From a virus (taxonomy: Duplodnaviria > Heunggongvirae > Uroviricota > Caudoviricetes): a stretch of DNA of 64,000 bases. The stretch is from IMG/VR virus record IMGVR_UViG_3300013307_000015; one strand, 5' to 3'. The notes beneath the pieces are model-generated. The model was not told the origin of the DNA and made no database searches. It saw nothing but the letters and a program-made list of their open reading frames with translations. How positions within the stretch are numbered: position 1 is the first letter of the stretch; the number at the start of each line of letters is the position of its first letter. The translations under genes were made by a program, and so were the position numbers. Shown here piece by piece: positions 1-61,408 of the stretch.

Positions 1-231
1 AATATTTTGGCAGTGGATTATCGACTGGGGTTGCAAACGCCATATCCGTCGTCGTCTGTTGCGGCTCAACTGCAACAAGGAGCCAACAATGTACCAGCGT
101 CATTACCGATTAACGACAACAGTATGAATCTCGGCCGGCGCGTAGCGTTACTGCGAAGCGCACCCGATAGCGGGAATTGGACGCCGGCGAAGATTGCCGC
201 GACTTCATTAGTCGTGACTCCCGCTTCTTAA
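1..231 (+). CDS. C-terminal fragment of upstream (likely structural) protein, partial at window edge
   Basis: Open frame from nt 1 with no stop until TAA 229-231; sits before the tail-fibre genes. Confidence 0.35.
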   Translation, partial: NILAVDYRLGLQTPYPSSSVAAQLQQGANNVPASLPINDNSMNLGRRVALLRSAPDSGNWTPAKIAATSLVVTPAS

Positions 232-251
232 CTTTTTTGGATGTGGAAATC

Positions 252-1925
252 ATGTCTAAAGCAAAAATGATGTACGCCTTTGACCACATTCCGACTGGAC
301 AAAGTGGGACAGGAGGTAACGTACCGACGTACGCTGTCGATTACCCGTTTGTGTGGAACGGCGCAACTACAGGTGGTGGTCCGGGTACTGGTGGTACTCT
401 GTCGGATACAGGCGGTGTGTGGTTGGCAGCAAATGGTGCGTACGGTTTTTCCGGCAACTTCTACGTGGGTGGATGGCTCATTCCGGTCAATCTGTTCGAT
501 TTGACCAAACCACGCGGTTATTATGGTTTTCGTTTTAAAGCTGCCGGCCCGAACCGCGTGAATCACCCACTAGTCATCATGAACAGCGCCAAAAGCGCCT
601 ATGGCTCGGTGATGGTGAACATCAACGATTACAACTGGATCACCAACCAGGAGTACTACGTTGAAGTACTGATTGATCGCCAGAACAATCTGCGCACCGT
701 GTGGGTCGACGGAGTGATGGTGATCAACGCCCAAGTGTTCAGCCAGACTATTCTCTCGACGGATTATCTGTCGATGGGTCAGATTTTGGGAACAGGCGGC
801 TCAAGCGGGCAGTCTTATCAGTTCAAAGACATCTATTTGATGGACGATCCGGGTGACGGCAGTGTATCGCGACTCGGTCCGATCAAAGCGTATCCGATTT
901 CGATTGCCTCAAGCAGCGGCAACGGCTGGGGTTCGAACATCGCAACCTTCAGTGGTACAGCTGGGGTTTCATCGCAAGCTAAGTTTGGCGCATCAGCGTT
1001 GACGATGGGAGCAACCGCATCGTCGGCTTGTTCGATTCCGGATAAGTCTGGTGTGAAATCCACCAGCACGGCAGACTTTACGATTGAAACGTGGTGTTTG
1101 TCGAATAACAATGCTCAAGTCGGGATACTGTTTGGTAAAGATGGTAGCGCGGCTCCGTTTGCGCACCTCACATACAACGCAGGGACTTGGCAGATGTGGG
1201 CTGACGGCAGCAGTGCGGTGATCAGTGCAGCCTCGGGTGTGGCTGTCAACACCTGGATGCATATTGCTCTGGTGAAATACCAGAACACGTGGTATCTCTA
1301 CCAGAACGGTGTATTGCTGGGTTCGGTAGCAGGCAGTACGTTCGGCAATAACTCGAACAACTTCGTGATCGGGAATTACGGCGGACTGCTCAATCAATGG
1401 CAAGGTTCCATTGACGAATTCCGCATCAGTACCAATGCGCGCTACACTGGCGCATTTACGCCGCCGTCCGCTCCGTTCACCACGGATGCGAATACGGCTT
1501 TGTTGATGCACTTCGACGCATTCAATAACGGTTATACGCCAGATGCATCGATCACGCTTCAAAGCGTACTGAATACGGCTCTTAACGCCACCACACCGAC
1601 GATGCCGAACCTCTCGGCGGCAGTGGATGGTACACCTTTGGTTTCTGCACTTCAGTCGACAGCAGACCAAGGAGCAAGTATTCAAGGGATTTTGTTGGTT
1701 GCTTCGGGCCAACGTGCTCCAGCATCAGGCACGACGCTTCGCACCACGATTGCTGATCAAGCTCAACCGCCCAACCAGCAAACCCTGAACGCGCTTCAAT
1801 TCCCAGCGGGTGCTTTTACTTACGGCAAGGTATTGGGTTTCTTGGCCAATGCACCAGATGGCTCGCAACTGACGACAGCAAAAGTGGCGCAACTTAGCCT
1901 GTCGTCTGTCGCGACAGCAACCTAG
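252..1925 (+). CDS. tail fibre protein with C-terminal LamG/ConA-like jelly-roll domain
   Basis: C-terminal TWMHIALVKYQNTWYLYQNGVLLG...GNYGG...DEFRIS matches LamG_3-type lectin fold used in phage fibres. Paralog of the next gene. ATG 252 (MSKAK) chosen over upstream in-frame ATG 177. Confidence 0.6.
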   Translation: MSKAKMMYAFDHIPTGQSGTGGNVPTYAVDYPFVWNGATTGGGPGTGGTLSDTGGVWLAANGAYGFSGNFYVGGWLIPVNLFDLTKPRGYYGFRFKAAGPNRVNHPLVIMNSAKSAYGSVMVNINDYNWITNQEYYVEVLIDRQNNLRTVWVDGVMVINAQVFSQTILSTDYLSMGQILGTGGSSGQSYQFKDIYLMDDPGDGSVSRLGPIKAYPISIASSSGNGWGSNIATFSGTAGVSSQAKFGASALTMGATASSACSIPDKSGVKSTSTADFTIETWCLSNNNAQVGILFGKDGSAAPFAHLTYNAGTWQMWADGSSAVISAASGVAVNTWMHIALVKYQNTWYLYQNGVLLGSVAGSTFGNNSNNFVIGNYGGLLNQWQGSIDEFRISTNARYTGAFTPPSAPFTTDANTALLMHFDAFNNGYTPDASITLQSVLNTALNATTPTMPNLSAAVDGTPLVSALQSTADQGASIQGILLVASGQRAPASGTTLRTTIADQAQPPNQQTLNALQFPAGAFTYGKVLGFLANAPDGSQLTTAKVAQLSLSSVATAT

Positions 1926-1939
1926 CGCGGAGTGTTGAG

Positions 1940-3262
1940 ATGACAACAACCTTTCGTAAAACAAGTGCAATTGTCTGGACGAAAGACCCTTCGCCGATTA
2001 GCACGCGTGCTGCTTCGGCAGTGGCGTTTGCCAGCGATTTAAATTTGATGGTGCGTAACGTTCAAGGTTACGCATTTGAGTCCCCGCAAGCGAATGTGGC
2101 TTTGCGCAACATCCAAGGCTATGCGTTTGAATCGGTCAAGCAGTCGTTGAATCTCTCTGTTACGGGAAATCAAGCGCTGTACGCGCTGATCAACAACAAC
2201 AGCTTGTACCAGAGCTGGAGTGCAAGTAACAGTACGCTGGGTGCACCAGTCGTTGATAACAGCGTGACGAACTGTAACACCAGAGTCAATTTGGCAGCCA
2301 AGACGGCAAGCGGGTACAGCGGCAACATCAATCTGTACTACAACCGGCGTCCTATTTCTGATGCGATTAACACCAGTGTCAGTTTGGGAACCATCGCCAG
2401 TAACACAGACGTCTGGACGTTGCTGCCGACCATCAACAGTAAGTACGGGACTAACCTCACGACAAGCGATGTGCTCAACGCATCGGTGAGTGCTGGTGCG
2501 ACCACGGTAATGCTGACGGTGGCAAGCGGCAGTTACATGTTCGTTCCGGGTTCGGTGGTGGCTGCTGGTCTGGTGAAGGATCTGGCTTCGGTTACACCGA
2601 GTAACCTGCTGTTTGGTTTCGACAATGCAGCAGGCAATGGTCCGAAGGCAACGAAAACGGTGATGTTGCTGCACTTCGAAGGCGGCAGCATTGTTGACAC
2701 GTCAGGTAACTTCACTCCGACGATTGTGAGTACCGCTGCGCTGACGACGCAGCAAGCGAAGTTTGGTACTCAGTGCCTGAGTTTGCCAGCCTCTGGATCT
2801 GCTCTGAAGTTCGCAGACGATCCGCGACTGCGCTTTACGAGCGACTGCACGCTTGAAGCCTGGGTGATGTCGACTAACAATGCTCAGAACGGCGTGTTGT
2901 TTGGTAAAGATCCGTCCTCTGGCAGCCCGCCTACGGAACTCCAGTATTTCAATGGTTCTTGGCGCGTGTGGCTTGATTCTGCCACTGTGAACATCTCAGC
3001 AACTTCCGGCGTTGCAGTCAACACCTGGATGCATATCGCGTTGGTGCGCTACAGTGGTGTCTGGTATCTGTATCAAAACGGTGTGCTGCTTGGTCAGTTC
3101 ACCGGTGGCACCTTCGGCAATAACACCAACCCCTTCTACGTGGGTAACTGGGGTGGCTTGGCGAATGAATTCCAGACTTACGTGGATGAAGTTCGGATCA
3201 GTAATGTGGCGCGCTACACGGCTCCCTTTACGCCTCCGGCAACTGCGTTTGCATTGGATTGA
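1940..3262 (+). CDS. tail fibre protein, LamG-domain paralog
   Basis: RBS GGAG before ATG. C-terminal NTWMHIALVRYSGVWYLYQNGVLLG...DEVRIS is near-identical to the module in the previous gene. Confidence 0.6.
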   Translation: MTTTFRKTSAIVWTKDPSPISTRAASAVAFASDLNLMVRNVQGYAFESPQANVALRNIQGYAFESVKQSLNLSVTGNQALYALINNNSLYQSWSASNSTLGAPVVDNSVTNCNTRVNLAAKTASGYSGNINLYYNRRPISDAINTSVSLGTIASNTDVWTLLPTINSKYGTNLTTSDVLNASVSAGATTVMLTVASGSYMFVPGSVVAAGLVKDLASVTPSNLLFGFDNAAGNGPKATKTVMLLHFEGGSIVDTSGNFTPTIVSTAALTTQQAKFGTQCLSLPASGSALKFADDPRLRFTSDCTLEAWVMSTNNAQNGVLFGKDPSSGSPPTELQYFNGSWRVWLDSATVNISATSGVAVNTWMHIALVRYSGVWYLYQNGVLLGQFTGGTFGNNTNPFYVGNWGGLANEFQTYVDEVRISNVARYTAPFTPPATAFALD

Positions 3263-3351
3263 TATCCAACGTTTCGCTTAAAAAATGTTGTCATCCTATG
3301 CGGGATGCTGGTAGAAGGTCCCGTTATTTCGTCTCCTTTTAAGGATCTCTC

Positions 3352-3894
3352 ATGTCAAAGATTGACTCCACCAAGTCAGCCATCGACAACCTGCTCGTTC
3401 TGGTGAATGCGGCCAACACCGGCCAAACGCTCCTGAACACGCAGGTCTCCGCTGGCACTCCGGCAGCTCAAACCGCTGACGGCCAAGGTCGCAACACCAA
3501 CGTCGTGCTGTCGGCCATCGCTGGTCACGGCTACACCGGTTCGCAGACGTTCACCTACACGCGTCGCGGTCTGAACGACTCGGTGCTCAGCCCGGTCGAC
3601 AGCTACACGGCCACCGTCGGCGTCACCGCCGCTTCGCTGCTCACCGCACTGGCCTCGCAACTGGGCCTGGTCGCAAGCGAACTGCATCTCGAAGATGCAG
3701 CCAATCCGGGCACGACGCTGTCGGGCGCGATCAGCAACAGCCCGGCCACGATCAACATCGTGTCGGCTGCCGGCTCGCTGCTGTACGTCGACGGCTCGAC
3801 CCAGGGCATCACGATGACCTGGAACCAGCCGACGGTTGACCTCGCAACGGCTACGCCGAACACCGCACTGAGCGGCTTCGACGCAGCAAGCTAA
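3352..3894 (+). CDS. hypothetical protein (paralog of 4016-4474; possible fibre-associated)
   Basis: RBS AAGGA. N-terminal MSKIDSTKSAIDNLL and GxTGSQTF motif shared with the downstream paralog. Confidence 0.55.
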   Translation: MSKIDSTKSAIDNLLVLVNAANTGQTLLNTQVSAGTPAAQTADGQGRNTNVVLSAIAGHGYTGSQTFTYTRRGLNDSVLSPVDSYTATVGVTAASLLTALASQLGLVASELHLEDAANPGTTLSGAISNSPATINIVSAAGSLLYVDGSTQGITMTWNQPTVDLATATPNTALSGFDAAS

Positions 3895-3926
3895 TCCAGA
3901 GCGCTTCGGCGCAATGGTTTAGGGAA

Positions 3927-3950
3927 CAGCCGGGGAGCAATCCTCGGCTG
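3927..3950 (+). terminator. hairpin terminator followed by TTTTTATGCCGTCACC box (second TTTATGCC copy 28 bp later)
   Basis: cagccgggg..cctcggctg stem then T-run. Confidence 0.5.
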
Positions 3951-4015
3951 TTTTTATGCCGTCACCGCAAACGCCGCAATTTTATGCCCTTCCCCATCCT
4001 GCATTTGGACCTGAC

Positions 4016-4474
4016 ATGAAAATCGATCCGACGAAATCTGCATTGCAAAACCTTCTGGCGTTGGTGGATGCAGCCAACCCCAATGGACCGACCAACGCTG
4101 CACAGGTGACATACACGAACCTGCAAGCTGCGACCCTTGAAGGCGATGCCGCCGCTAACACCTCGGTGGAACTCGACGGTGTAAGCAATCAAGGCTTCAC
4201 GGGTTCCCAGACCTTCTATTACGGTCGTCTTGCCTTGGCAGACGAAGCCGCCAGCCCGACAGGTTCGGTGAACATTCCCAACGGCTCCACCAGCGATCAA
4301 ATTCTGGCGCTGGTCGCCACCTACTATGGTTTCATTCCTGCTGAGATCTCTTGGCAGAGTGTGCCGGTCGCTCCGGGTACGTTGCCGGGGGACACCACCG
4401 CAACAGTACAGTGCAGTGGCTCGCTGGTGTATCTGGATGGCACCGCGACAGTCAACCTTCACTGGGAAGCATAA
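4016..4474 (+). CDS. hypothetical protein (paralog of 3352-3894)
   Basis: MKIDPTKSALQNLLALVDAAN resembles the N-terminus of the previous gene. Start taken at ATG 4016 rather than track ATG 3956. Confidence 0.5.
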   Translation: MKIDPTKSALQNLLALVDAANPNGPTNAAQVTYTNLQAATLEGDAAANTSVELDGVSNQGFTGSQTFYYGRLALADEAASPTGSVNIPNGSTSDQILALVATYYGFIPAEISWQSVPVAPGTLPGDTTATVQCSGSLVYLDGTATVNLHWEA

Positions 4475-4495
4475 GTGAGCTAAGGAAACTCAAAA

Positions 4496-4963
4496 ATGCA
4501 GATGAACCTACCATACCCCTATTTGGGTTTGAGCGCGCAGAGGTTGACTGACTGGATCAATTCTGACAACAGTACGAGTTATCAGTTGGGGGTGGACTTC
4601 ACGTTCAGTGGTCCGGCTCTTTACACTGATAGTCTGGGGCGAAACACCAAGGTAACGATGCAGCCGGTGGATTCGACGAAGTATGCTTCGACCGACATTC
4701 ACTACTGGAGACTGCCGCTGACGATTTTGAACAACTTGCCGCAAGGCAATGTCAACCCGGTTCCGATTTCTCAGTTGCCGTTTTCCATCCATGGAATTCT
4801 GGATGCGATCAACACCGCACTGGGATTGAACCTGACGCCCGACGAAGTACCGGACCAGACGTTCACCACCGAGCTTGCTTCCTATCCGCTGCACATCAAC
4901 GATGCCGTGAGTCTTGCTTGGATTGATTCGGACTTTCAATTCCAACCGCAGTTCATGTTTTAA
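4496..4963 (+). CDS. hypothetical protein
   Basis: RBS AAGGAAA 8 nt upstream; ORF-track frame. Confidence 0.5.
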   Translation: MQMNLPYPYLGLSAQRLTDWINSDNSTSYQLGVDFTFSGPALYTDSLGRNTKVTMQPVDSTKYASTDIHYWRLPLTILNNLPQGNVNPVPISQLPFSIHGILDAINTALGLNLTPDEVPDQTFTTELASYPLHINDAVSLAWIDSDFQFQPQFMF

Positions 4964-4974
4964 CGGTTGCGTGA

Positions 4975-4996
4975 GCCTAGGGGAAACCCCCTAGGC
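4975..4996 (+). terminator. hairpin gcctagggg-aaac-cccctaggc followed by TTTATGCCC box
   Basis: perfect 9-bp stem, GNRA-like loop. Confidence 0.5.
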
Positions 4997-5053
4997 TTTA
5001 TGCCCGAAAAGTGAGAATTTACGTAGAGCATCGATAATGTAGATTCTAGAATC

Positions 5054-5097
5054 TTTCAGTTACATATAACCTCATCGAGTTGGTAAGCCTATCAACT
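5054..5097 (+). promoter_or_regulatory. conserved intergenic element TTCAGTTACATATAACC + hairpin GAGTTGgtaagcctatCAACTC (copy 1 of 4)
   Basis: Repeated at 60853-60894, 29235-29280 and 43972-44008, with compensatory base changes in the stem. Confidence 0.45.
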
Positions 5098-5135
5098 CTT
5101 TCTCCATTTACATTCGAACAAACTAGGAGCTAATC

Positions 5136-5309
5136 ATGGTTGACTACGCAAACAACAACTATTCCGCAGGCAAGAAAACCTTCAAGGCAAAGGCATTGCG
5201 CTTCATTGGCGTGACGCTTATCTTCGCACTGCTGGGTGGCACGATCGTCGCGGCTGACCACGTCGGTCACTACCTGCAAACGCACCGCACCGGTTACACG
5301 GGCAACTGA
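5136..5309 (+). CDS. small membrane protein (57 aa), not in ORF track
   Basis: Strong RBS AGGAG 7 nt before ATG; ACATTCGAA leader motif; one hydrophobic helix IGVTLIFALLGGTIVAA. Confidence 0.55.
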   Translation: MVDYANNNYSAGKKTFKAKALRFIGVTLIFALLGGTIVAADHVGHYLQTHRTGYTGN

Positions 5310-5319
5310 GGAATCGGCG

Positions 5320-5700
5320 ATGGAACAACAGAAACAAGACTGGATGTCGTTTCTTGCAGACTTCGTTGATCTCGTCAAAAACTTGAACCGTAAGTTTGGC
5401 GACAACGAAATCACTGAACAAGAAATACTCGATTCAGTCGGAGAGAAGTTCGTCGATGCGCACAACTACGCGCAAGTGTCAGAGCTTCATCCGAAGATGG
5501 TTCATGCTTGGTCGCAATTGCAGGAATCGATCCAGAAGATCAAACTCATTCGCGCCAAGAAGATGACGCAGCGCCAGCGTTATCTGTACCACATGCGGGA
5601 ACTCTTCCAAGACCCCGCCAAAGTCTGGGATACCAGCATTCCGTGGTCAACGCGCTGGTGGTACAACCACTGCGTGGAGTTGCAAGTAAGGCCGCATTAA
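5320..5700 (+). CDS. hypothetical protein
   Basis: RBS GAGG before ATG 5320 (MEQQKQDW). The track ORF's upstream extension overlaps the previous small gene. Confidence 0.5.
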   Translation: MEQQKQDWMSFLADFVDLVKNLNRKFGDNEITEQEILDSVGEKFVDAHNYAQVSELHPKMVHAWSQLQESIQKIKLIRAKKMTQRQRYLYHMRELFQDPAKVWDTSIPWSTRWWYNHCVELQVRPH

Positions 5701-5732
5701 ACAGTATCCAACATTCGAATAACGAGGAATTC

Positions 5733-5942
5733 ATGAGAATCAAAGAAATGGTCGTGATCGATAACGACACGCGAGAAGTTTTCGTCGATGGCATCAAGTG
5801 GCAGCCGTCGCCGGAGTCGTACATGCATCTGGCTCGCTTCGGGACGGGTCCGTATAGCGAACGTCCCATTGAGCCGCAACGCATTCATCCCGGCATCGCC
5901 ATGTACCGTACGGTTTCCAACATGGGGGTGCGTCGTGCTTAA
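5733..5942 (+). CDS. hypothetical protein (69 aa)
   Basis: RBS ACGAGGAA; ACATTCGAA leader at 5711; start MRIKEM. Confidence 0.45.
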   Translation: MRIKEMVVIDNDTREVFVDGIKWQPSPESYMHLARFGTGPYSERPIEPQRIHPGIAMYRTVSNMGVRRA

Positions 5943-6204
5943 GATCTTCATCCTCTTCGGCCTGTTCGCATGGTACAAGAGCAGCTGGATGATCGCGCGC
6001 TACCTTACGCGCCGGGTGATGTTCAAACACGTAATTCGTGCAGACATGGCTGTTGCGTTTGCACAGATGACCGGAAGGAGAGAATTCATCGTCCAGAATC
6101 AGAGGAATCTCATTCTGCCGATCATCGCAAGTTGGTTGTTGTTCATCGCGCTCCTGTATCTGGGAGCGGCATTTACAGTCCAGTATCTTGGGCTGACGTT
6201 GTAA
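5935..6204 (+). CDS. small membrane protein (2 predicted TM helices)
   Basis: GTG start after GGGGG; LKIFILFGLFAWY and IIASWLLFIALLYLGAAF hydrophobic segments. Confidence 0.4.
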   Translation: MLKIFILFGLFAWYKSSWMIARYLTRRVMFKHVIRADMAVAFAQMTGRREFIVQNQRNLILPIIASWLLFIALLYLGAAFTVQYLGLTL

Positions 6205-6322
6205 GAAAGGCGTCGACACCTATAAGTCCTACAAGTCACACGCCTTCACGGGGCTCGACTATTCGAGACAGTCGGGCTAATCACTCTTAAAAAAAGAAGA
6301 ACTGTGAAGTTTGGGAGCTATC

Positions 6323-6637
6323 ATGCGAAGCTTATATCGCAGACACATCAAAATCTCGCTCTTGGAAGCGAGTCAAGCTGAAAGGGCCCATGGTTGGGCC
6401 AGCACGGAAGACGGAACGGGTACCGAAGTTCGCCACTACTTTGTGTGCGACCAAGAACGCTTTCTCCATCACCTGAAACAACCGGGGATTGCGTCCTTGC
6501 GCTTGCAGCTTGAAAAGCTCGGCGTCCATCCGAAAAGCATCACGATCAAGCGGGCCTACAACACGCTCACGTACAAGAACCTGTCGTATCGGCGGGAGCG
6601 CGCTGTGAATCAATACGAAATGCCGGTCGCAGCCTGA
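6323..6637 (+). CDS. hypothetical protein
   Basis: RBS GGGAG before ATG 6323. Confidence 0.45.
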   Translation: MRSLYRRHIKISLLEASQAERAHGWASTEDGTGTEVRHYFVCDQERFLHHLKQPGIASLRLQLEKLGVHPKSITIKRAYNTLTYKNLSYRRERAVNQYEMPVAA

Positions 6638-6737
6638 TCGCCGGAGGAGCCGTGGAAACGGGGGTAAGCGGTTCCTCTTCTCTGTCCCCCGGAAGTACCT
6701 TAAACATTTTTCGCTCAATCATCTTTGGAGATAACAA

Positions 6738-7670
6738 ATGAGCATCAAAGAAACCATCCTGAACGTTCTCGGCGCTAACCCCAAGAACAGCTTCAACGAA
6801 GTCGAAGTGAAGTTCTACAAGGACTGCAATCGTGACGGCCAACACGGCATGGTGATCGTCTCGCACCGCGTGAAACGTCTGGACCACGTCGCTGTCCCGT
6901 TCCTCTTCCCTGGCCTGACCGAACCGCCGGCGCTCACCGCTCGTGTCCTCGCAGACATCGAGTCGGCTGGCGCGTCGCAAGGTTATGTCGTCCACTGCCT
7001 GCTGCCCGAAACGTACGGTCCGAACCTGGCCGAGGGTGACGATCTGTCTGCCGATCACGATTCGTCGAACCGTCGGCAGATGTTCAGCGATCGCCTCGCG
7101 AATCCGGTACGCGTGCCGGCTGTTCAACGTGAACAAGGCATGATGTTCGCTGGTGTGCTGCCGAGCGATGTCGATACGTTCCTCAAGCACTACTTCGCAG
7201 CGGACGTCAAGCGACAAGCTGTGCAGCTCGCGCTGAACGGCAAGCAAGCCGCTGACCTGCGCGAGCGACTCGGCGAGCGCGTGGCGCAAGCATTCACGCG
7301 CAGCGAGAAGGTCGGCGTGATCTACATCGTCCTCGACCGCATGCTTAATCAGTTCTGCAAGGAGATCAACCTGATGGTCCTCTCGCCGAATGTAGACGAG
7401 CGGCCGAGCGGGTTGCCGTTGCCGTTGTCGAAGCTGAAGGAAGGCAGCACTCTGGAGCAGATCCAATCGGCATCGGATCTCGTCGATATGCTCTTCCCGC
7501 ACGAAGAGTACGACACGCTCACGCAGATCCAGAAGGATGAAATCCAGTCGCGTGTACTGATGTCGGTGAACAACGATACGGCTCGCAAGCTGCCGTCGTC
7601 GGTCGTACAAGCCAACGTCGAGCAGATCATCACCACGTTCCGCGAAATCAACGTCGTGTCGAAGTCGTAA
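6738..7670 (+). CDS. hypothetical protein (310 aa)
   Basis: RBS GGAGA before ATG. Preferred over the 380-aa Arg-rich antisense ORF on the - strand. Confidence 0.6.
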   Translation: MSIKETILNVLGANPKNSFNEVEVKFYKDCNRDGQHGMVIVSHRVKRLDHVAVPFLFPGLTEPPALTARVLADIESAGASQGYVVHCLLPETYGPNLAEGDDLSADHDSSNRRQMFSDRLANPVRVPAVQREQGMMFAGVLPSDVDTFLKHYFAADVKRQAVQLALNGKQAADLRERLGERVAQAFTRSEKVGVIYIVLDRMLNQFCKEINLMVLSPNVDERPSGLPLPLSKLKEGSTLEQIQSASDLVDMLFPHEEYDTLTQIQKDEIQSRVLMSVNNDTARKLPSSVVQANVEQIITTFREINVVSKS

Positions 7671-7676
7671 GGCGGC

Positions 7677-7696
7677 GAGGAGACTTCGGTCTCCTC
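7677..7696 (+). terminator. UUCG-tetraloop hairpin gaggagac-ttcg-gtctcctc
   Basis: 8-bp GC stem, then TTTCCC. Confidence 0.4.
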
Positions 7697-7736
7697 TTTC
7701 CCAACACATTCGAAGAAATTACAGAGGGAGTCAATC

Positions 7737-8030
7737 ATGTTGGAACTGTTTGGTCTTGCCGATCACAGCGTGCAAGTCGGCATCAGCAATCTCGCTCTTC
7801 AGTCGCACCACGGCACTGCTACCACCACGCAAGGTCGCTTTCCTTTCGTCGTGGATCGTCCGGGTAAGTTGAAGCGCCCGCGCACCAGCACGGTCGAGAG
7901 CATCTTCAAGCAGTTCGAGAAGCTCGGTGCACCTGCAACGGAAGTGGAAGTTTCAGTTGGCAATCGTCGGCGCGTCTATCGCATCGAGAATGGCCAACCG
8001 AAGCTGATCACGCAATCGTTTTCCGCCTAG
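7737..8030 (+). CDS. hypothetical protein
   Basis: RBS GAGGGAG; ACATTCGAA leader at 7706. Confidence 0.5.
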   Translation: MLELFGLADHSVQVGISNLALQSHHGTATTTQGRFPFVVDRPGKLKRPRTSTVESIFKQFEKLGAPATEVEVSVGNRRRVYRIENGQPKLITQSFSA

Positions 8031-8061
8031 AGTGCTGTTCCCGTAGACTGGGCGGGTTTTA

Positions 8062-8099
8062 AGAGGGTGCGTCTGTCCACGCGCACCCTCTTTTTTTTG
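8062..8099 (+). terminator. rho-independent terminator
   Basis: agagggtgcg...cgcaccctct stem followed by T8. Confidence 0.7.
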
Positions 8100-8115
8100 T
8101 CTTCGATGATAAAAC

Positions 8116-8568
8116 ATGGATAAGAAAACTGGCATCATCGTGCAATGCCTCTTCGGAGTGGAAGTCGTCAATGAGTTCCGCAAAGCGTACAAGGAGACCA
8201 AAGAAGTCCAGACATTAACGGACTCTTCCATGCGCTCGATGTTGTATCATGGGGATGCGATTCCGCACATCGAGTATGGAAATCTCTTCGTGGTGAAAGT
8301 GGGTCGTCCTGTACACATCCTCGGTATGTCGACTCGCTTTGGTCCGGTCATCATGCGCGTGACGCATCGGCGGGAAGTCGAGATCTTGATGAATCGTGCA
8401 GTGAGTCATTACTACCACAAGAAGCTGCACGAGATTGGCATGCATACGTCGAACATCTATAACGAGATGACGAAGTTCATGGGGTTGAATTCCGATAAAA
8501 GAAAATATCCTGGCGATAAACCTATGGTGAATTTGGGCCAGATGATCGAACGTGAATCGACCCATTGA
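8116..8568 (+). CDS. hypothetical protein, GDAIPHIEY family (paralog of 28767-29219)
   Basis: Shares YHGDAIPHIEYGNLF / YGDAIPHIDYMNSIGKLF motif with the second copy. Confidence 0.5.
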   Translation: MDKKTGIIVQCLFGVEVVNEFRKAYKETKEVQTLTDSSMRSMLYHGDAIPHIEYGNLFVVKVGRPVHILGMSTRFGPVIMRVTHRREVEILMNRAVSHYYHKKLHEIGMHTSNIYNEMTKFMGLNSDKRKYPGDKPMVNLGQMIERESTH

Positions 8569-8645
8569 AACGGAAATCGAACATATATCACTGACGTAGG
8601 CTAGTGTTAGCCACGACAATTTTTTCGTACTTGGAAGAAAGAAGA

Positions 8646-9296
8646 ATGGAAAAGAAAGGGGTTTTCATTTCGATGGAAGGACCGGATGGTTCGGGCAAAA
8701 CTACGAACGTGGGTTTCCTGCGCGAGTGTTTGCAAGAACACGGTTTTCAAGTCGTGACAACGCGCGAGCCTGGCGGCTCTCCGATCGCAGAACAACTGCG
8801 CCAGATCATCCTCACGCAGTACATGGAGTCGGATGCAGAATTGCTGCTCTTCGCAGCAGCGCGGGCAGACCACATCAGCAAGACGATCAAACCGGCATTG
8901 GCCGGCGGTTATGTCGTTCTCACTGATCGCTTCTGTGACTCGACCGTCGCCTATCAGGGGTATGGGCGCGGGTTGTTGGAGAAGGTACGTGAACTGGAGC
9001 AATTCGTTCACGCGGGGTTCTATCCCGATCACACGCTCTTTTTCGACATCCCTTTCGAAGAGTGCATCAGTCGGCTCTCGAAACGAGTCGACAAGCAAGA
9101 TCGCATCGACCAAGAAGCGGTCGAATTCAAGCGGCGCGTTTGGTTCGGCTACCAGCGGCAATTCAACGATAACCAACATCGCATGGTCCGGATCAATGCG
9201 TTGGAGGATCTGTCGGATGTACAGCGGCAGATCCAAAACTGGGTGCATGAGGAGTTCGCTCCGAAGCATCGTCACTTGCAACATTATCCGAGATGA
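8646..9296 (+). CDS. tmk: thymidylate kinase (dTMP kinase)
   Basis: P-loop GPDGSGKTT, TREPGG, and DRF..S..AYQG lid region. Confidence 0.9.
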   Translation: MEKKGVFISMEGPDGSGKTTNVGFLRECLQEHGFQVVTTREPGGSPIAEQLRQIILTQYMESDAELLLFAAARADHISKTIKPALAGGYVVLTDRFCDSTVAYQGYGRGLLEKVRELEQFVHAGFYPDHTLFFDIPFEECISRLSKRVDKQDRIDQEAVEFKRRVWFGYQRQFNDNQHRMVRINALEDLSDVQRQIQNWVHEEFAPKHRHLQHYPR

Positions 9297-9469
9297 TTCA
9301 CTATTTGTTTCACACCCCTGATGGCGTCATGCTTTTGATCGTCATCTGTTCTGTCGTCGGTTTCTTTATCGGCCGTACTCATCGACGTTACAAGAAGAGT
9401 CTTAAACATCGGACTCCTCATCGTAAGCTCGATGGTTTTCATCCAGCGGACAAGAAGAAAGATTTCTAA
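9293..9469 (+). CDS. small membrane protein (58 aa), not in ORF track
   Basis: ATGA overlap with tmk stop; hydrophobic LLIVICSVVGFFIG then basic tail. Confidence 0.35.
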   Translation: MIHYLFHTPDGVMLLIVICSVVGFFIGRTHRRYKKSLKHRTPHRKLDGFHPADKKKDF

Positions 9470-9595
9470 TTCGCTGGAAGATATTTGCGGTTTCCATCGT
9501 ACTTTATACGCCTCCTCTCCATCATGCGAAGCAGTATAGGCCAATTGAACTTGATTGACACAGGCAGCAGTGAGCGTAAGTCCTAGGAGATAATC

Positions 9596-9886
9596 GTGAG
9601 TATCACATCGCAGGAGCAACTCGCTCAACGCCTCGCCAGCGAATTGGCTCCACTTCGTCAGCTGAAACAAAGCGAGGACATGGAAGACTTCTATCAAGCG
9701 GTCGACTGGGTTCGTGGCAATTGTGCCTTTACGTCTGAAGGCGATGTGGTCTTTCACGGCGGCACGCAAGAAAGCATCCCGGTTCGTTGTCCGAACCTCT
9801 CCAAACGCGATCCGTTGTATCGGCTGCTCAAGGCAGAGGCGGAGCGCAACAACACGCACCTCAACCCGGCAGTCACCACTGCCTAA
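9596..9886 (+). CDS. hypothetical protein
   Basis: GTG start with RBS TAGGAGA. Confidence 0.45.
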   Translation: MSITSQEQLAQRLASELAPLRQLKQSEDMEDFYQAVDWVRGNCAFTSEGDVVFHGGTQESIPVRCPNLSKRDPLYRLLKAEAERNNTHLNPAVTTA

Positions 9887-9897
9887 GGAAAAGAAAG

Positions 9898-11205
9898 ATG
9901 GCTGACAAGAAGAAATATCCCGGCTGGATTCTGGCAATTGACGCTGATTACTGCAAGCGCTTTTTCACTCAAGGCTTCAACGTCATGTCGCTGTCGCGCT
10001 TCATCGACGGCTTGCCGGCCAAGCGCATCGATCCGAAGACGAACCAGCCGATCCTCTACACCGACGATCTGGCGTCGCGCGTCTTGATGCGTGAGCGGCA
10101 CCGGCTGGAGTTCGACAAGAACTACCTCCAGCCGCTGAACTACATGGTGCTCAAGCAGAGTCAACCGGTCGGGTTCGCCAATCGGGAAGGCGGCTTCTGT
10201 GCGGTCAAGCGCGAGGACTTCTTTTCGACGTACTACCGCAACAAGGGTGTCGGCGAAGACCGGCTGGCCGACAAGATGTCGGTCGGCTGGGGCGGTCACA
10301 GCGAACGCTTCAGCGGTGCGTTCAACGAAGTCGGTGCGTTGAATTACGTGGCGACGGCCGGCAGCAACATGATGACGGAACTGAACGAGGAATGCCGTCT
10401 CAGGGTGCCGGATACGCTCAGTCATGAGATCCCGTTCGAGAGCGTGCCGATCATCTTCAAGGGTTTCATCTGGGACATGTCGGACGACGTCGGTCAGCAT
10501 CACCTCGCACTCGTCTGGGAAGTCGCGGTGCCCGAAGCGGTGGTGCTGGAATCGCGTGAAGACGAACACAAGCTTGGCCCGTGGTGCAACCGTGCTGAAC
10601 TCATGGCTGACAAGAACAGCCGTGCTGACAAGTACGAGAACTGGTCGAAGATCGTGATCGATCAGATCTGTCTGGACGGTTGGGATCTGCTCGGCACCGA
10701 CAAAGACTGGATCTCGAAGGCCAACGCAGAAGCCGCTTATCAGACAGCTGAAGCTGAACTGGTTGACCAACCCACGGGACAGTCGACCGAAGGCGGTAAG
10801 TGGTTTCTCGATCACGCAGGCGACCGGGAACTGATCGATTTCATTGGTCAGTTCAACGTGAAGGCTTTCGCGAGCGGCTGGAAACACCAACGGGTGCGCG
10901 GCGCGATGGCCAACATCCTGAACGACAAGGATCGGGACGAGATCATCAGACTGCCGATGTCGGCCTTCACGTTCGAAGCCAATGGTGCGCTCGCCATTGC
11001 AAGAGGTCCGGTGATCGCGCTGAACAGCGAAGAAGAACCGGCCATCGATTTGCCGAATAACGGTACGATGGTGCTTGGTCTCGACGAAGGTTCGCCGCAA
11101 GGTGATCAGACGGCAATCGGCGGCGAAATCGTCAGCCCGACGAACATGTACCTGCAAATCGATCCGGTGGCGCAGCTGGCCGACGAAATCGGTCCGAAGG
11201 CGTAA
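9898..11205 (+). CDS. hypothetical protein (435 aa)
   Basis: RBS AAGGAAAAG before ATG 9898. The antisense 459-aa ORF is Arg-rich and judged spurious. Confidence 0.6.
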   Translation: MADKKKYPGWILAIDADYCKRFFTQGFNVMSLSRFIDGLPAKRIDPKTNQPILYTDDLASRVLMRERHRLEFDKNYLQPLNYMVLKQSQPVGFANREGGFCAVKREDFFSTYYRNKGVGEDRLADKMSVGWGGHSERFSGAFNEVGALNYVATAGSNMMTELNEECRLRVPDTLSHEIPFESVPIIFKGFIWDMSDDVGQHHLALVWEVAVPEAVVLESREDEHKLGPWCNRAELMADKNSRADKYENWSKIVIDQICLDGWDLLGTDKDWISKANAEAAYQTAEAELVDQPTGQSTEGGKWFLDHAGDRELIDFIGQFNVKAFASGWKHQRVRGAMANILNDKDRDEIIRLPMSAFTFEANGALAIARGPVIALNSEEEPAIDLPNNGTMVLGLDEGSPQGDQTAIGGEIVSPTNMYLQIDPVAQLADEIGPKA

Positions 11206-11216
11206 TTCGGCAACGT

Positions 11217-11248
11217 GAGAGAGGGTGGCTTCGGCCACTCTCTTTTTA
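11217..11248 (+). terminator. UUCG-loop hairpin + T-run, followed by TTTTTATTCCC box
   Basis: gagagggtggc-ttcg-gccactctc then TTTTT. Confidence 0.5.
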
Positions 11249-11291
11249 TTCCCTCGATGCATCTAGTGTCACGTGCGCACAAAGGACAATC

Positions 11292-11957
11292 ATGACAGAA
11301 AGAAAAGAGTTGGTGGAGCCGTCTGAATCGATTCCGCTGAAAGAACGGTTGGACATGGTTGGTGATTTCAACTATGGCGTACTCACGGCGCAAGTCAGCG
11401 ATTACGTGAATGCAGCAAAGAAACAACCCGTGATGGAGTATCTGAACGGAATTCTCGGTGTTTCGGAATTCATCACCAGCAAGCTGGATGAACTCGGTAT
11501 TCCGGACAAGAAGTCCGAGAAAGCCACGCCGTTCAATCAGCCGCTGGTGATGATGACGCCGGTTGATCGCGAAGAATTCCTCAACGTTCTGCGTGATCAA
11601 ATCAAGAACGTGAAGATCATGCCGACATCATCGGATGGTGTTTTCGGCGGACAGTCTCACTCGAAACCCTATTACATCCAGGCAAAGGACTTCGATCAGT
11701 TCCTCATCTCCTCGATGGGCAGAAGTGATTGGCCGACACTGCTGCGATGGGATGATGGTCCGGAGCCTTCGGAAGAACTTTGGGCAATGATTCCGGTCGA
11801 CGGGATTTACATCTTCGCGGCTCTGACATCGCTCAAGATCCATGTCTGTGTCTGGACCGAGGATGCAGAGCCGAGTATCAAGTCTTGGGAATGGGAAGAA
11901 GGACAGAGCCTTCCTGTTGATCGTCAAGAATTTCAAAAACGCATCGAACTGCTTTAA
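11292..11957 (+). CDS. hypothetical protein
   Basis: RBS AAAGGA before ATG. Confidence 0.55.
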   Translation: MTERKELVEPSESIPLKERLDMVGDFNYGVLTAQVSDYVNAAKKQPVMEYLNGILGVSEFITSKLDELGIPDKKSEKATPFNQPLVMMTPVDREEFLNVLRDQIKNVKIMPTSSDGVFGGQSHSKPYYIQAKDFDQFLISSMGRSDWPTLLRWDDGPEPSEELWAMIPVDGIYIFAALTSLKIHVCVWTEDAEPSIKSWEWEEGQSLPVDRQEFQKRIELL

Positions 11958-11966
11958 GGAACCGCA

Positions 11967-13190: not shown

Positions 13191-13198
13191 AGTGACGT

Positions 13199-13218
13199 GC
13201 GGGGGATTCGTCCCCCGC
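13199..13218 (+). terminator. hairpin gcggggga-ttcg-tcccccgc
   Basis: GC stem with UUCG loop, no strong T-run. Confidence 0.3.
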
Positions 13219-13234
13219 CGGATGAGGAGGCTCT

Positions 13235-14110: not shown

Positions 14111-14124
14111 GAAAGGAGAAAGCA

Positions 14125-14631
14125 ATGTCGATCTGGTCGGAAAGTAGATTGAAGTGGGAAATCGAGAATGGTCCGTTCTCGTATTTCAAAAAGTTCAAGG
14201 AGGAGCACGAGTCTCGCCTTAAGGAAGCGAAGACTACTGAAGATACCGAAGCATTGGAGCTTGCCAAAGACGCCATCGTGTCGATACCGGCACGTTACGT
14301 TTGCTGGAACAGCGACAACAACATGCCGATGGAACTGGATGGTCGATTGGTCAACAGATACGGTGACGGCCAATTCGTTTTCCGGTGTGACTTTGCGTTG
14401 CCTACTCCGGCGACCAAGACATATGCAATGCTGTTCGGACTCGACGTCGTCTTCGTACCGTTCTTTGAGTCCGAATTCTGTCTTCTCGATGTTCGTTCCT
14501 TCAGAGGCATCTTCGAGTGGATGACATCCAATGTTCCGGAAAACGAGAAAAGCTCGCTACCGGAACAACTGGAGAAGGAACTGCGTGCGTACCAACGTTA
14601 CCTTTCATTCGAGGGCTATGACACGGAGTAA
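14125..14631 (+). CDS. hypothetical protein
   Basis: RBS AAGGAGAA. Confidence 0.6.
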   Translation: MSIWSESRLKWEIENGPFSYFKKFKEEHESRLKEAKTTEDTEALELAKDAIVSIPARYVCWNSDNNMPMELDGRLVNRYGDGQFVFRCDFALPTPATKTYAMLFGLDVVFVPFFESEFCLLDVRSFRGIFEWMTSNVPENEKSSLPEQLEKELRAYQRYLSFEGYDTE

Positions 14632-43931: not shown

Positions 43932-43960
43932 CGGGGTCTTCGGACCCCTTTCTTTTTTTG
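43932..43960 (+). terminator. rho-independent terminator (UUCG loop + T-run)
   Basis: ggggtc-ttcg-gacccc TTTCTTTTTTT. Confidence 0.7.
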
Positions 43961-43971
43961 TTTCAAACGGA

Positions 43972-44008
43972 TTTCAGTCACATATTACTCCTTGGATTAA
44001 CAGGAGTA
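43972..44008 (+). promoter_or_regulatory. TTTCAGTCACATATTAC + hairpin tactcct...aggagta element (copy 4)
   Basis: Same box as copies 1-3; the stem sequence differs but the hairpin is kept. Confidence 0.4.
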
Positions 44009-44014
44009 ATTCAA

Positions 44015-44392
44015 ATGAGAAACGAACTAATCTACAAGCTGATTCAAGACGTTTTGATTGCAGCAGAACACACACCGGTTGATCTGACGTACTTTGACAA
44101 GCATCCGGCAACGGGCATCATCTTCCGCCGGCAAAGAAGAAAAACCAGCCCGACTATCGTCAGCTGGCGTGAAGTTTCCATTCGCGTGTATGCACCTTTA
44201 CCCAATGCACGGCGCGTCTTGTGTAACGCGAAGTACTCGGTCAAAATCCTTGACCGCAGTCCTGATGTAAGTCCCAAGAACGCTGCACTTGAAGAAGACA
44301 TCTTCAAGCGTGAATACGACTTGACAGAAGATCACGATGCACTGGTGAAAGCCATCATTGCGTATCTGAAAAGAGAGAAAAATCCTACCTAA
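44015..44392 (+). CDS. hypothetical protein
   Basis: RBS AGGAG inside the element hairpin. Confidence 0.5.
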   Translation: MRNELIYKLIQDVLIAAEHTPVDLTYFDKHPATGIIFRRQRRKTSPTIVSWREVSIRVYAPLPNARRVLCNAKYSVKILDRSPDVSPKNAALEEDIFKREYDLTEDHDALVKAIIAYLKREKNPT

Positions 44393-60852: not shown

Positions 60853-60894
60853 TTCAGTCACATATAACTTTCGCGAGTTGGTAAGTAGATCAAC
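60853..60894 (+). promoter_or_regulatory. conserved TTCAGTCACATATAACT + hairpin GAGTTGgtaagtagatCAAC element (copy 2)
   Basis: near-identical to 5054-5097. Confidence 0.45.
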
Positions 60895-60961: not shown

Positions 60962-61408
60962 GTGATTGACGCCAAACTTGAAACCATTCTCGACAAGGAC
61001 GAAGAGGATTTCAAAATCGACGACTTGATCTACATGGTCCAGTTGTTGCGTGAAGATAAATCCCTTGTTGAGTATTACAAGAAAAGACGCATCGAGTTCA
61101 ACGGGGACAAGAACGTTCTCGATAGCTCCTGCGACATCTCATCGGAAATTCAGGCCATGTTTCCTGAATACGACGAAGATAACCTGGAAGCAATCCAAGG
61201 ATATCTACAAGACAATAGCAGTCTCAACTACCTGCTGGTAAAGCCGACGGGTAAGGACCAGGAAAACTACAGCATCAAGGGATCGATGCTTCGGAAACTG
61301 TACGCTGCTGGAATTCAGTTCTCCGTCGATTTCGAGTTTGTTCCGCAAGAGGATGATCATTATCCGGTGGCACTTCTCGAAGTCGAGCATTTCATTTTGC
61401 GCATCTAA
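60962..61408 (+). CDS. hypothetical protein (AT-richer)
   Basis: GTG start after CTACATTCGAAGGAACTATT leader. Confidence 0.5.
   Translation: MIDAKLETILDKDEEDFKIDDLIYMVQLLREDKSLVEYYKKRRIEFNGDKNVLDSSCDISSEIQAMFPEYDEDNLEAIQGYLQDNSSLNYLLVKPTGKDQENYSIKGSMLRKLYAAGIQFSVDFEFVPQEDDHYPVALLEVEHFILRI

What the first reader, a model, noticed from the sequence alone, without database searches (positions are those of the whole stretch)
5044..5097. About 60-bp conserved intergenic element: TTCTAGAaTcTTTCAGTyACATATAAC followed by a hairpin whose stem shows compensatory base changes (4 copies)
Copies lie at 5044-5097, 60843-60894, 29224-29280 and 43972-44008. The 5' half is conserved in primary sequence, with a CATATAAC / TATATATAAC -10-like box. 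The 3' half is a hairpin whose sequence varies but keeps base pairing: GAGTTG/CAACTC, GAGTTG/CAAC, GAGCTG/CAGCTT (T to C on one arm paired with A to G on the other), and tactcct/aggagta in copy 4. The paired changes argue for a functional RNA or DNA stem-loop. The element could be a promoter whose transcript begins with a 5' stabilising or regulatory hairpin, or a binding site for a phage factor. Each copy precedes a gene at 5136, 60962, 29376 or 44015.
Basis: seen in the sequence. Interest (0 to 1): 0.6.

Follow-up and report, generated by a model that had tools for sequence, protein, structure and literature searches.

The report
Jumbo phage early promoter, hairpin leader
The repeated 60-bp element is the early-gene promoter of an uncultivated 245-kb phiKZ-like jumbo phage, probably read by the RNA polymerase the phage carries in its virion, and here it is usually followed by a hairpin at the very start of the transcript; this is a known kind of signal, so it is useful for annotation rather than surprising.

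Summary
TTTCAGTYACATATAAC (up to 3 mismatches) occurs 4 times, all on the coding strand, against 0.12 expected by chance. A fifth, weaker copy lies at 34586, and two more lie in the same genome outside the window.

The element is best read as a phiKZ-type early promoter for the virion RNA polymerase. It has conserved blocks at -30, -20 and -10. A conserved G lies 6 nt after the block, the spacing of mapped start sites in phiKZ and AR9. Its sequence resembles validated phiKZ early promoters (TTTCAGATTTATATTAC-N6-G).

The same motif recurs in Ralstonia phage RSL2, which encodes split RNA polymerase subunits. It also recurs in Erwinia and Salmonella jumbo phages and in many uncultivated relatives with 31-57% GC.

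The window belongs to a ~245-kb genome with PhuZ tubulin, a phiKZ-type S80 prohead protease and phiKZ-type terminators. I could not locate its polymerase genes with the tools available.

The hairpin is real but specific to some lineages. It starts at or near the predicted +1. Five homologous copies in this genome keep 87% pairing, with three doubly changed pairs. Its function, probably 5' mRNA protection, is inferred only.

This is a new member of a known kind.

The parts
5042..5077 (+). Promoter copy 1, predicted -35 to +1: GATTCTAGA box (-35..-27), TTTCAGTTACATATAAC (-23..-7), N6, G at +1 (5077).
   Evidence: Numbering follows the AR9 and phiKZ rule of a start 6 nt after the block.
5077..5098 (+). 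Leader hairpin of copy 1, GAGTTGGTAAGCCTATCAACTC. The stem starts at the predicted +1; -10.0 kcal/mol.
4974..5004 (+). phiKZ-type terminator just upstream of copy 1: AGCCTAGGGG-AAAC-CCCCTAGGCT followed by TTATGCCCG.
   Evidence: The motif TTATKYYGT after a GC-rich hairpin is reported for phiKZ in PMC10914365.
60840..60875 (+). Promoter copy 2 (core 60852-60868), predicted +1 G at 60875. It starts directly after the stop codon of the gene at 60360-60842.
   Evidence: best window hit, E 3e-7.
60875..60894 (+). Leader hairpin of copy 2 (GAGTTGGTAAGTAGATCAAC). It is weak, -4.7 kcal/mol. A second hairpin follows at 60902-60931.
29223..29258 (+). Promoter copy 3 (core 29235-29251, TTTCGGTTATATATAAC), predicted +1 G at 29258.
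29258..29279 (+). Leader hairpin of copy 3, GAGCTGGTAACCCAGTCAGCTT. It carries the compensatory U-A to C-G change.
43960..43995 (+). Promoter copy 4 (core 43972-43988, ...CATATTAC), predicted +1 G at 43995. The leader is 20 nt with AGGAG before ATG 44015. A canonical terminator lies upstream at 43917-43960.
43986..44009 (+). Its 5' arm is promoter DNA upstream of the predicted start. The stem could form only in read-through RNA, where it would cover the Shine-Dalgarno sequence.
   Evidence: The predicted own transcript is unstructured (0.0 kcal/mol).
34574..34608 (+). It lies upstream of ATG 34646.
   Evidence: E 0.83 alone, but intergenic, on the right strand, and followed by a hairpin.
34608..34624 (+). 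Hairpin GAGTTC-AAGCG-GAACTC, starting at the G of the fifth copy.
   Evidence: read directly from the sequence.
8575..8613 (+). Possible degenerate sixth copy (AATCGAACATATATCAC, of the RSL2-like AATCAnnnATATAwAC type) plus hairpin GGCTA-GTGT-TAGCC. It precedes the thymidylate kinase gene at 8646-9296.
   Evidence: (E 14, not significant alone).
5136..5309 (+). Gene served by copy 1: a 57-aa protein with one hydrophobic helix.
   Evidence: no Pfam hit.
29376..31214 (+). Gene served by copy 3: a 612-aa trimeric autotransporter adhesin with a signal peptide, YadA stalk and YadA anchor.
34646..35140 (+). Gene served by copy 5: 164 aa, function unknown.
44015..44392 (+). Gene served by copy 4: 125 aa, function unknown.
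60962..61408 (+). Gene served by copy 2: 148 aa, function unknown.

Best explanation
The element is an early promoter of a phiKZ-related jumbo phage of about 245 kb.

Proposed mechanism (inferred): the multisubunit RNA polymerase packaged in the virion and injected with the DNA recognises a roughly 36-bp site. The site has a box at about -30 (GATTCyAGA), a T-rich/TTTCAGT block at about -20, and the AT-rich block CACATATAAC centred on -10. Transcription starts at the conserved G 6 nt downstream (5077, 29258, 34608, 43995, 60875). The genes served are mostly small proteins of unknown function, and transcription often starts right after the previous unit's terminator.

In this lineage the transcript usually opens with a stem-loop that begins 0-5 nt from the 5' end. 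The most likely role of that stem is to shield the 5' end of early mRNAs from 5'-end-dependent decay (RppH and RNase E).

What is shown: the repeat, its conservation pattern, its homology to validated promoters, the phage lineage, and base-pair conservation in the stem. What is inferred: which polymerase reads it, the start site, the timing, and the stem's function.
For: 1. Non-random repeat on the coding strand only. A profile trained only on other genomes finds the window copies as its top hits.

2. The conservation matches the known class. Thirty distinct copies from 18 contigs give ..TccA.atttTTTCAGTcAcATATaACtta..tGA. [quoted passage not shown] 201phi2-1 and phiKZ early promoters are conserved at -10, -20 and -30 (PMC11512511).

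3. Direct sequence similarity. phiKZ has TTTgAGATtTATATTAC-N6-G before gp54, gp58.1, gp68 and gp76, and gp54 has an early-motif primary start site (PMC8244752). RSL2 has about 14 copies of ttTCAnnnATATAwAC, 12 of them followed by N6-GA, on its main coding strand; one is TTTCAGAAACATATAAC, 15 of 17 identical to the window core. Erwinia phage pEa_SNUABM_48 and Salmonella phage SA002 carry intergenic copies followed by hairpins.

4. Lineage of the window's genome. The window proteins lie on contigs of 244,636-245,051 bp. The gene at 11967-13190 is Pfam Peptidase_S80, the phiKZ gp175 type. A PhuZ tubulin (PHROG E 1e-78) is recorded with the same longest-contig length, 245,051 bp, as a window protein. 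Eleven window ORFs have homologs in RSL2. The terminators follow the phiKZ motif of a hairpin plus TTATGCCGT.

5. Relatives that carry the motif encode the enzyme. There is a phiKZ gp80 (virion polymerase subunit) homolog in L020, two DFDGD beta-prime-like genes in L101 and L102, and gp55/68/71/73/74/80 homologs in RSL2.

6. The motif is kept in phages from 31% to 57% GC. In 596 Gb of bacterial genomes it gives only 7 single hits, no more than my estimate of what chance would give. This argues for a phage-encoded reader.

7. Hairpin. Seventeen of 30 copies have a stem of -4.5 kcal/mol or better starting within 7 nt of the G, against 8% in shuffles (p 1e-11). The figure is 5 of 6 in this genome. 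Covariation is seen in five homologous copies.
Against: - The polymerase genes were not found in this phage's own genome. Only about 40% of it could be read. The word-based and pattern-based searches did not return its contigs, and profile searches of the readable parts were negative. This is a limit of sensitivity and access, not a demonstrated absence.
- There are no transcript data, so the start site and early timing rest on analogy.
- Only about 7 strict copies were seen in 245 kb, against about 30 in phiKZ. Either many copies are degenerate or this is a subclass.
- One copy drives a 612-aa adhesin gene, which is unusual for an early gene.
- Hairpin energies in the window are unremarkable against random 32-nt windows of this 53% GC genome (percentiles 0.07-1.0; p 0.04). 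RSL2 and phiKZ show no enrichment.
- Many copies are paralogs, so the p-values overstate independence.
Confidence: 0.8

Rival explanations
1. It is a host sigma-70 (or other host sigma) promoter, with TATAAC as the -10 hexamer.
For: TATAAC matches TATAAT at 5 of 6 positions, and the Y-G at -1/+1 suits bacterial polymerase.
Against: Position -7 is C in every copy. No TTGACA-like hexamer lies at a 16-18 bp spacing. The 'spacer' (-23 to -13) is the most conserved part. The sigma-70 scan did not flag the element, and sigma-70-like sites in 1-20000 are at chance level overall, 10 found against 12 expected. The motif is kept across phages of 31-57% GC and is no more frequent in bacterial genomes than my estimate of chance.
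Confidence: 0.05
2. It is a promoter for a different phage-encoded reader: the non-virion polymerase (middle class), or a phage factor that redirects host polymerase.
For: The polymerase was not identified in this genome. There are few copies per genome. One downstream gene is a large adhesin rather than a typical small early gene.
Against: Known non-virion polymerase motifs are short and different: TATG at the start in phiKZ, and AACA-N6-TA/G in AR9. The phiKZ middle motif is TACT at -22. The present motif aligns with the early class instead.
Confidence: 0.1
3. It is mainly a repeated recombination cassette, like the promoter-stem-loop cassettes (PeSLs) of T4-type phages. On this view the pairing conservation reflects recent duplication rather than selection.
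For: Five copies in this genome share not only the promoter but a homologous leader: hairpin, then CATTTACATTCGAAsnAAyTAGGAG. Several copies sit directly after terminators.
Against: This does not exclude promoter function. The copies have diverged enough to show three doubly changed pairs that keep pairing. Unrelated leader sequences in distant relatives also fold.
Confidence: 0.03
4. The conserved part encodes a structured small RNA or cis-regulatory RNA rather than a promoter, or it is a single-subunit (T7-like) polymerase promoter.
For: There is loose resemblance of GTCACATATA to the T7 motif CTCACTATA. A hairpin follows.
Against: No Rfam family matches the element. The conserved 5' half has no predicted pairing. 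Conservation spans about -35 to +2, wider than T7-type promoters. The homologous sites in phiKZ are mapped promoters of the multisubunit enzyme.
Confidence: 0.02

Closest known systems
Early (virion RNA polymerase) promoters of phiKZ, 201phi2-1, phiR1-37 and AR9
   Same: Extended AT-rich block centred on -10. Further conservation at -20 and -30. Conserved purine start 6 nt after the block. Located on the coding strand before operons of small hypothetical genes. Direct similarity to phiKZ TTTCAGATTTATATTAC-N6-G.
   Different: The consensus is lineage-specific (TTTCAGTCACATATAAC, with C at -14 and -16 and a GATTCyAGA box). There are fewer strict copies per genome. A hairpin usually sits at the 5' end of the leader, which the papers I read do not describe for phiKZ, 201phi2-1 or AR9.
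Intergenic motif copies in Ralstonia phage RSL2/RSF1, Erwinia phage pEa_SNUABM_37/48 and Salmonella phage SA002
   Same: Nearly the same motif and spacing (for example TTTCAGAAACATATAAC-N6-GA in RSL2). Same position after terminators and before genes.
   Different: These sites are unannotated in the records. RSL2 leaders mostly lack a 5' hairpin (4 of 14, not enriched).
5'-terminal stabilising stem-loops of bacterial and phage mRNAs (ompA leader, T7 gene 10 leader); from established knowledge, not tested here
   Same: The stem begins within a few nucleotides of the 5' end. Its sequence is free to vary while pairing is kept.
   Different: No half-life data exist here. Stems are short (5-9 bp), and some copies have none.
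PeSL cassettes (promoter-early stem-loop) of T4-type phages; recalled from the literature, not re-read
   Same: Short repeated cassettes that combine an early promoter and a stem-loop, scattered between small genes.
   Different: There the promoter is sigma-70-like and the stem-loop is a terminator. Here the promoter is of the phiKZ type, and the stem lies downstream of the start and has no T-run.
Hairpin promoters of the phage N4 virion RNA polymerase; recalled from the literature
   Same: A virion-carried polymerase and a hairpin associated with early promoters.
   Different: The N4 hairpin forms in DNA upstream of the start and is the recognition element. Here the hairpin is downstream of the start, varies in sequence and is dispensable in relatives.

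Membership tests
phiKZ-type early (virion RNA polymerase) promoter | Highly conserved AT-rich block of about 10 nt or more, centred near -10 | tested here: met
   CAyATATwAC is close to invariant across the 30 copies (positions -13..-10 and -8/-7 fixed by the search pattern). The class definition comes from PMC7598289 and PMC5312081.
phiKZ-type early (virion RNA polymerase) promoter | Conserved start nucleotide (G) 6 nt downstream of the block | tested here: met
   G follows N6 in all 15 copies collected without constraining that position. One window copy (34586) uses N5. This is tested at the sequence level only.
phiKZ-type early (virion RNA polymerase) promoter | Additional conserved positions around -20 and -30 | tested here: met
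   TTTCAGT lies at -23..-17 and (GA)TTCyAGA at -35..-27. The feature is described for phiKZ and 201phi2-1.
phiKZ-type early (virion RNA polymerase) promoter | Sequence similarity to experimentally mapped members | tested here: met
   12-13 of 17 core positions match phiKZ sites before gp54, gp58.1, gp68 and gp76, with the same N6-G. The gp54 early start site is mapped.
phiKZ-type early (virion RNA polymerase) promoter | The genome encodes a virion multisubunit polymerase (split beta/beta-prime genes) | tested here: inconclusive
   Met in motif-bearing relatives (L020 gp80 homolog; L101 and L102 DFDGD genes; RSL2). Not found in the readable ~40% of this genome. The database searches did not return its contigs.
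phiKZ-type early (virion RNA polymerase) promoter | The genome belongs to the phiKZ-related lineage | tested here: met
   Peptidase_S80; PhuZ, recorded with the same longest-contig length of 245,051 bp as a window protein; RSL2 homologs; phiKZ-type terminators.
phiKZ-type early (virion RNA polymerase) promoter | Transcription starts minutes after infection without new protein synthesis | not testable with these tools
   The phage is uncultivated and no RNA data exist.
Sigma-70 promoter | TTGACA-like -35 hexamer 16-18 bp upstream, and T at -7 of the -10 hexamer | tested here: not met
   C is at -7 in all copies. The best -35 candidates match 2 of 6 positions. The element was not listed by the consensus scan.
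Intrinsic terminator | GC-rich stem followed by a T-run | tested here: not met
   No T-run follows the leader stems. True terminators of this phage look different: a hairpin plus TTATGCC.
5'-terminal stabilising stem-loop | The stem begins within about 0-4 nt of the transcript's 5' end, and pairing is conserved rather than sequence | tested here: inconclusive
   In this genome the first paired nucleotide is 1 in four of the six copies folded, 3 in one, and copy 4 has no stem. Covariation is seen in 3 of 9 pairs. However, the 5' end is only predicted.
N4-type hairpin promoter | DNA hairpin with a 3-nt loop upstream of the start, serving as the recognition element | tested here: not met
   The hairpin lies downstream of the predicted start, has loops of 4-10 nt, and is absent in many relatives.
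Rfam RNA families | Match to a curated covariance model | tested here: not met
   Only two tRNAs reach gathering scores in the window.

The most novel reading that the evidence does not exclude
The hairpin at the 5' end is a selected, functional module of virion-polymerase transcripts in one clade of uncultivated phiKZ-like phages. It would protect the first mRNAs from host 5'-end-dependent decay before phage degradosome inhibitors are made. Alternatively it could mark early mRNAs for translation, or for exit from the early infection compartment. Together with the promoter and a conserved ACATTCGAA leader box, it would form a portable early-expression cassette.
Probability: 0.3. Interest if true: 0.5.

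Novelty: new member of a known kind. Interest (0 to 1): 0.3.

Why it matters
- **Annotation.** The element gives a transcription map for an uncultivated 245-kb nucleus-forming-type jumbo phage: which genes are probably early, where units start, and where they end.
- **Conservation of promoter recognition.** One promoter consensus is shared by a broad clade spanning 31-57% GC. This implies that the virion polymerase's promoter recognition is strongly conserved.
- **Practical use.** The motif is a simple search key for finding such phages in metagenomes and for predicting their early gene sets. Here that set includes a phage-encoded trimeric autotransporter adhesin.
- **Open question.** The leader hairpin is a modest, testable hypothesis about how early jumbo-phage mRNAs survive.

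Tried and rejected
- **Close relatives among isolates.** Megablast of 20 kb of the window against 50,697 phage records found nothing. A 181-bp query gave only chance hits.
- **Hunt for this genome's polymerase genes.** All of the following failed to return its contigs:
  - three homologous-protein searches;
  - profile searches of the readable parts.
- **Representative search.** A full HMM search found 1,834 members of the gp80 family, but I had no way to tell which, if any, belongs to this phage. An amino-acid composition filter was not discriminating.
- **Bacterial genomes.** The motif scan returned 7 single hits, no more than my estimate of chance, so there is no host clue.
- **Sigma-70 reading.** Rejected on the invariant C at -7, the missing -35 hexamer and the conserved spacer.
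- **T7-like promoter reading.** Rejected because the conserved region is too wide and because of the homology to phiKZ sites.
- **Terminator reading of the stem.** Rejected for lack of a T-run.
- **Chance matches in the first scan.** Seven of the 21 loci (L001, L006, L013, L016, L017, L019, L021) lack the flanking conservation, so I treated them as chance.
- **Repeated identical site in AT-rich contigs.** The site in L084, L086, L092-L094, L106 and L107 was set aside as unrelated or unresolved.
- **Literature.** The phiKZ transcription paper PMC4178840 is not held.

Full report
**1. The observation**

The four reported copies are present as described. TTTCAGTYACATATAAC with up to three mismatches matches four times, at 5054, 29235, 43972 and 60852. 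All four are on the + strand, where every plausible gene of the window lies. Chance predicts 0.12 matches, and no shuffle reached four.

A sequence profile found a further copy at 34586-34602, TTTTGATCACATATTAC. It is followed by the hairpin GAGTTC/GAACTC and by the gene at 34646. A weak candidate lies at 8583.

I then built a profile without any window sequence, using copies from uncultivated relatives, Ralstonia phage RSL2 and phiKZ. It ranks the four reported copies as the top four window hits (E 3e-7 to 6e-4). The fifth scores E 0.83 and the sixth E 14.

**2. What genome this is**

No isolate is close at the DNA level. Exact look-ups place the window's proteins on contigs of 244,636, 244,888 and 245,051 bp from independent assemblies. 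The genome is therefore a jumbo phage of about 245 kb, and the window covers roughly 64-128 kb of it.

Several features tie it to the phiKZ lineage:
- The gene at 11967-13190 is Pfam Peptidase_S80, the phiKZ gp175-type prohead protease.
- An IMG/VR near-twin (98.5% identical over the 4.5 kb compared) is split into contigs of 159,105 and 85,894 bp.
- The smaller contig encodes a PhuZ tubulin (PHROG E 1e-78).
- That exact PhuZ sequence and a window protein are both recorded with the same longest-contig length, 245,051 bp.
- Eleven window ORFs have weak homologs in RSL2.
- RSL2 encodes homologs of phiKZ gp55, 68, 71, 73, 74 and 80, the split polymerase subunits.
- The window's terminators are GC-rich hairpins followed by TTATGCCGT. 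This is the phiKZ terminator motif ...GGBYTTATKYYGT reported in PMC10914365.

**3. What the element is**

Exact-motif scans of IMG/VR found the same 17-mer several times each in other large phage contigs. Examples are 3300022744_000020 (270 kb, three copies), 3300017977_000066 (155 kb, six copies) and 3300035181_000377 (four copies). The same flanks recur throughout.

Thirty distinct copies give the consensus ..TccA.atttTTTCAGTcAcATATaACtta..tGA. In other words, there are conserved blocks at about -30, -20 and -10, and a G six nucleotides after the block.

This is the published description of early promoters of polymerase-encoding jumbo phages:
- AR9 early promoters read AAATATATATTAT-(6N)-G+1.
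- In phiKZ and phiR1-37 the start site lies 6 nt after an extended AT-rich consensus (PMC5312081; PMC7598289).
- phiKZ and 201phi2-1 early promoters are conserved at -10, -20 and -30 (PMC11512511).

phiKZ itself carries TTTGAGATTTATATTAC-N6-G before gp54 and TTTCAGATTTATATTAC-N6-G before gp58.1, with similar sites before gp68 and gp76. The gp54 site has a mapped early primary start (PMC8244752).

RSL2 has about 14 copies of ttTCAnnnATATAwAC, 12 of them followed by N6-GA. One is TTTCAGAAACATATAAC, 15 of 17 identical to the window core. Erwinia phage pEa_SNUABM_48 and Salmonella phage SA002 have intergenic copies followed by hairpins.

Motif-bearing uncultivated relatives encode a phiKZ gp80 homolog and beta-prime-like DFDGD proteins.

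The motif persists across genomes of 31-57% GC. In 596 Gb of bacterial genomes it appears only 7 times, always singly, which is no more than I estimate chance would give. This fits a reader encoded by the phage.

**4. Why it is not a sigma-70 promoter**

Numbering from the predicted start puts TATAAC at -12 to -7. Position -7 is always C, no TTGACA-like hexamer lies at the proper spacing, and the would-be spacer is the best-conserved stretch. The consensus scan did not list the element.

**5. The hairpin**

Five copies in this genome share a homologous leader: window copies 1-3, one copy about 3 kb beyond the window end (L005), and one on the second contig (L002). On their alignment a 9-bp helix starting at the predicted +1 has these properties:
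- 86.7% of cells form standard pairs.
- Three pairs are changed on both sides while remaining paired (G-C/A-U, U-A/C-G, A-U/U-A).
- Registers slid by 1-3 columns reach only 20-44% pairing.
- The covariation score is reached by 5 of 500 shuffles.

RNAalifold predicts the same helix independently.

Across all 30 copies, 17 have a stem of -4.5 kcal/mol or better beginning within 7 nt of the G. Shuffles of the same leaders give 8% (p 1e-11). These copies are not independent, because many are paralogs.

Three cautions apply:
- In this 53% GC genome such energies are common. The copies fall at percentiles 0.07-1.0 of random genomic windows, the enrichment against genomic background is p 0.04, and only copy 1 has a strong z-score.
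- RSL2 and phiKZ show no enrichment, and one relative with six copies has almost none.
- Copy 4's stem is a different thing. Its 5' arm is the promoter's own -9..-3 region, so it cannot be in the promoter's transcript.

The stem is therefore a lineage-specific leader feature, not part of the promoter.

A stem that begins at the 5' end, varies freely in sequence and keeps its pairing fits protection against 5'-end-dependent decay. phiKZ is known to target the host degradosome (cited). That function is inference only.

**6. Genes served**

The downstream genes are:
- a 57-aa membrane-type peptide (5136);
- unknown proteins of 164, 125 and 148 aa (34646, 44015, 60962);
- a 612-aa trimeric autotransporter adhesin with a signal peptide (29376).

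Mostly small hypothetical genes is what is reported for 201phi2-1 early promoters.

**7. What remains unshown**

I could not find the polymerase genes of this particular genome. Only about 40% of it was readable. The available searches work through exact words or short peptide patterns, and they did not return its contigs. There are no RNA data.

**8. Verdict**

The element is a new member of a known class, the phiKZ-type early promoters. A modestly supported leader hairpin, not described in the papers I read, is the only possibly new aspect.

Noticed in passing
window 5110, 5711, 7706, 31294, 36091, 44425, 46312, 60944, 61413, 62387, 63613 (+ strand); also L002 and L005: The motif (y)ACATTCGAAGGAAnTA recurs 8-30 nt upstream of many start codons. 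ATTCGAA occurs 18 times on the + strand, about 11 of them just before a start codon. It lies between the hairpin and the start codon in promoter copies 1 and 2, and in the two copies outside the window. It could be a translation-initiation context or a second (middle or late) promoter class. The 11-mer alone is not over-represented at 2 mismatches (35 found against 30 expected).
   Followed up: partly
window 3925-3957, 4974-5001, 23991-24016, 43483-43510, 49311-49336, 51075-51097; variants at 11220-11249 and 28356-28384: Terminators with a conserved tail: a GC-rich hairpin followed by (T)TTATGCCsTC. This matches the phiKZ terminator motif ...TTATKYYGT reported in PMC10914365.
   Followed up: partly
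window 29376-31214: A phage-encoded trimeric autotransporter adhesin with signal peptide [21 protein letters not shown], a YadA stalk and a YadA anchor, sitting behind an early-type promoter. It implies a Gram-negative host and possibly early remodelling of the cell surface.
   Followed up: partly
window 43986-44009: The complementary arms TACTCCT/AGGAGTA could form only in RNA that reads through from upstream. There they would hide the Shine-Dalgarno sequence of the gene at 44015, whereas transcripts from promoter copy 4 would leave it free.
   Followed up: no
window 57957-58046 and 58147-58219: Two tRNA genes on the + strand (Rfam, 66.5 and 66.8 bits).
   Followed up: no
window 177-4963 and about 8 kb upstream in L044-L046: A long array of paralogous structural genes with Laminin_G_3 and DUF7941 domains, at least ten in a row. 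PHROGs hits are to baseplate wedge and virion structural proteins.
   Followed up: no
window 60902-60931: A second, GC-rich hairpin (cggggtagggtgcaagctctatcccgg) in the leader of copy 2, between the first hairpin and the ACATTCGAA box. The other copies lack it.
   Followed up: no
window 8646-9296, 16363-17529, 23022-23987, 41307-42140, 42552-43463: Nucleotide-metabolism and other accessory genes: thymidylate kinase, thymidylate synthase, a DHH-family phosphoesterase, dCTP deaminase (60% identical to one in relative L012), and an SPFH/Band 7 protein.
   Followed up: no
L084, L086, L092, L093, L094, L106, L107: An identical site, attccattggaagataTTTCAGTTATATATAACccaattGA, occurs in seven AT-rich (26-29% GC) viral contigs. 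It lacks the upstream box. I did not determine whether it is a promoter of another phage group or lies inside a gene.
   Followed up: no
L005 5046-8673 (- strand), about 5-9 kb beyond the window end: The gene direction flips just beyond the window. A 738-aa DNA helicase (phrog_62) and an unknown 504-aa protein lie on the minus strand.
   Followed up: partly
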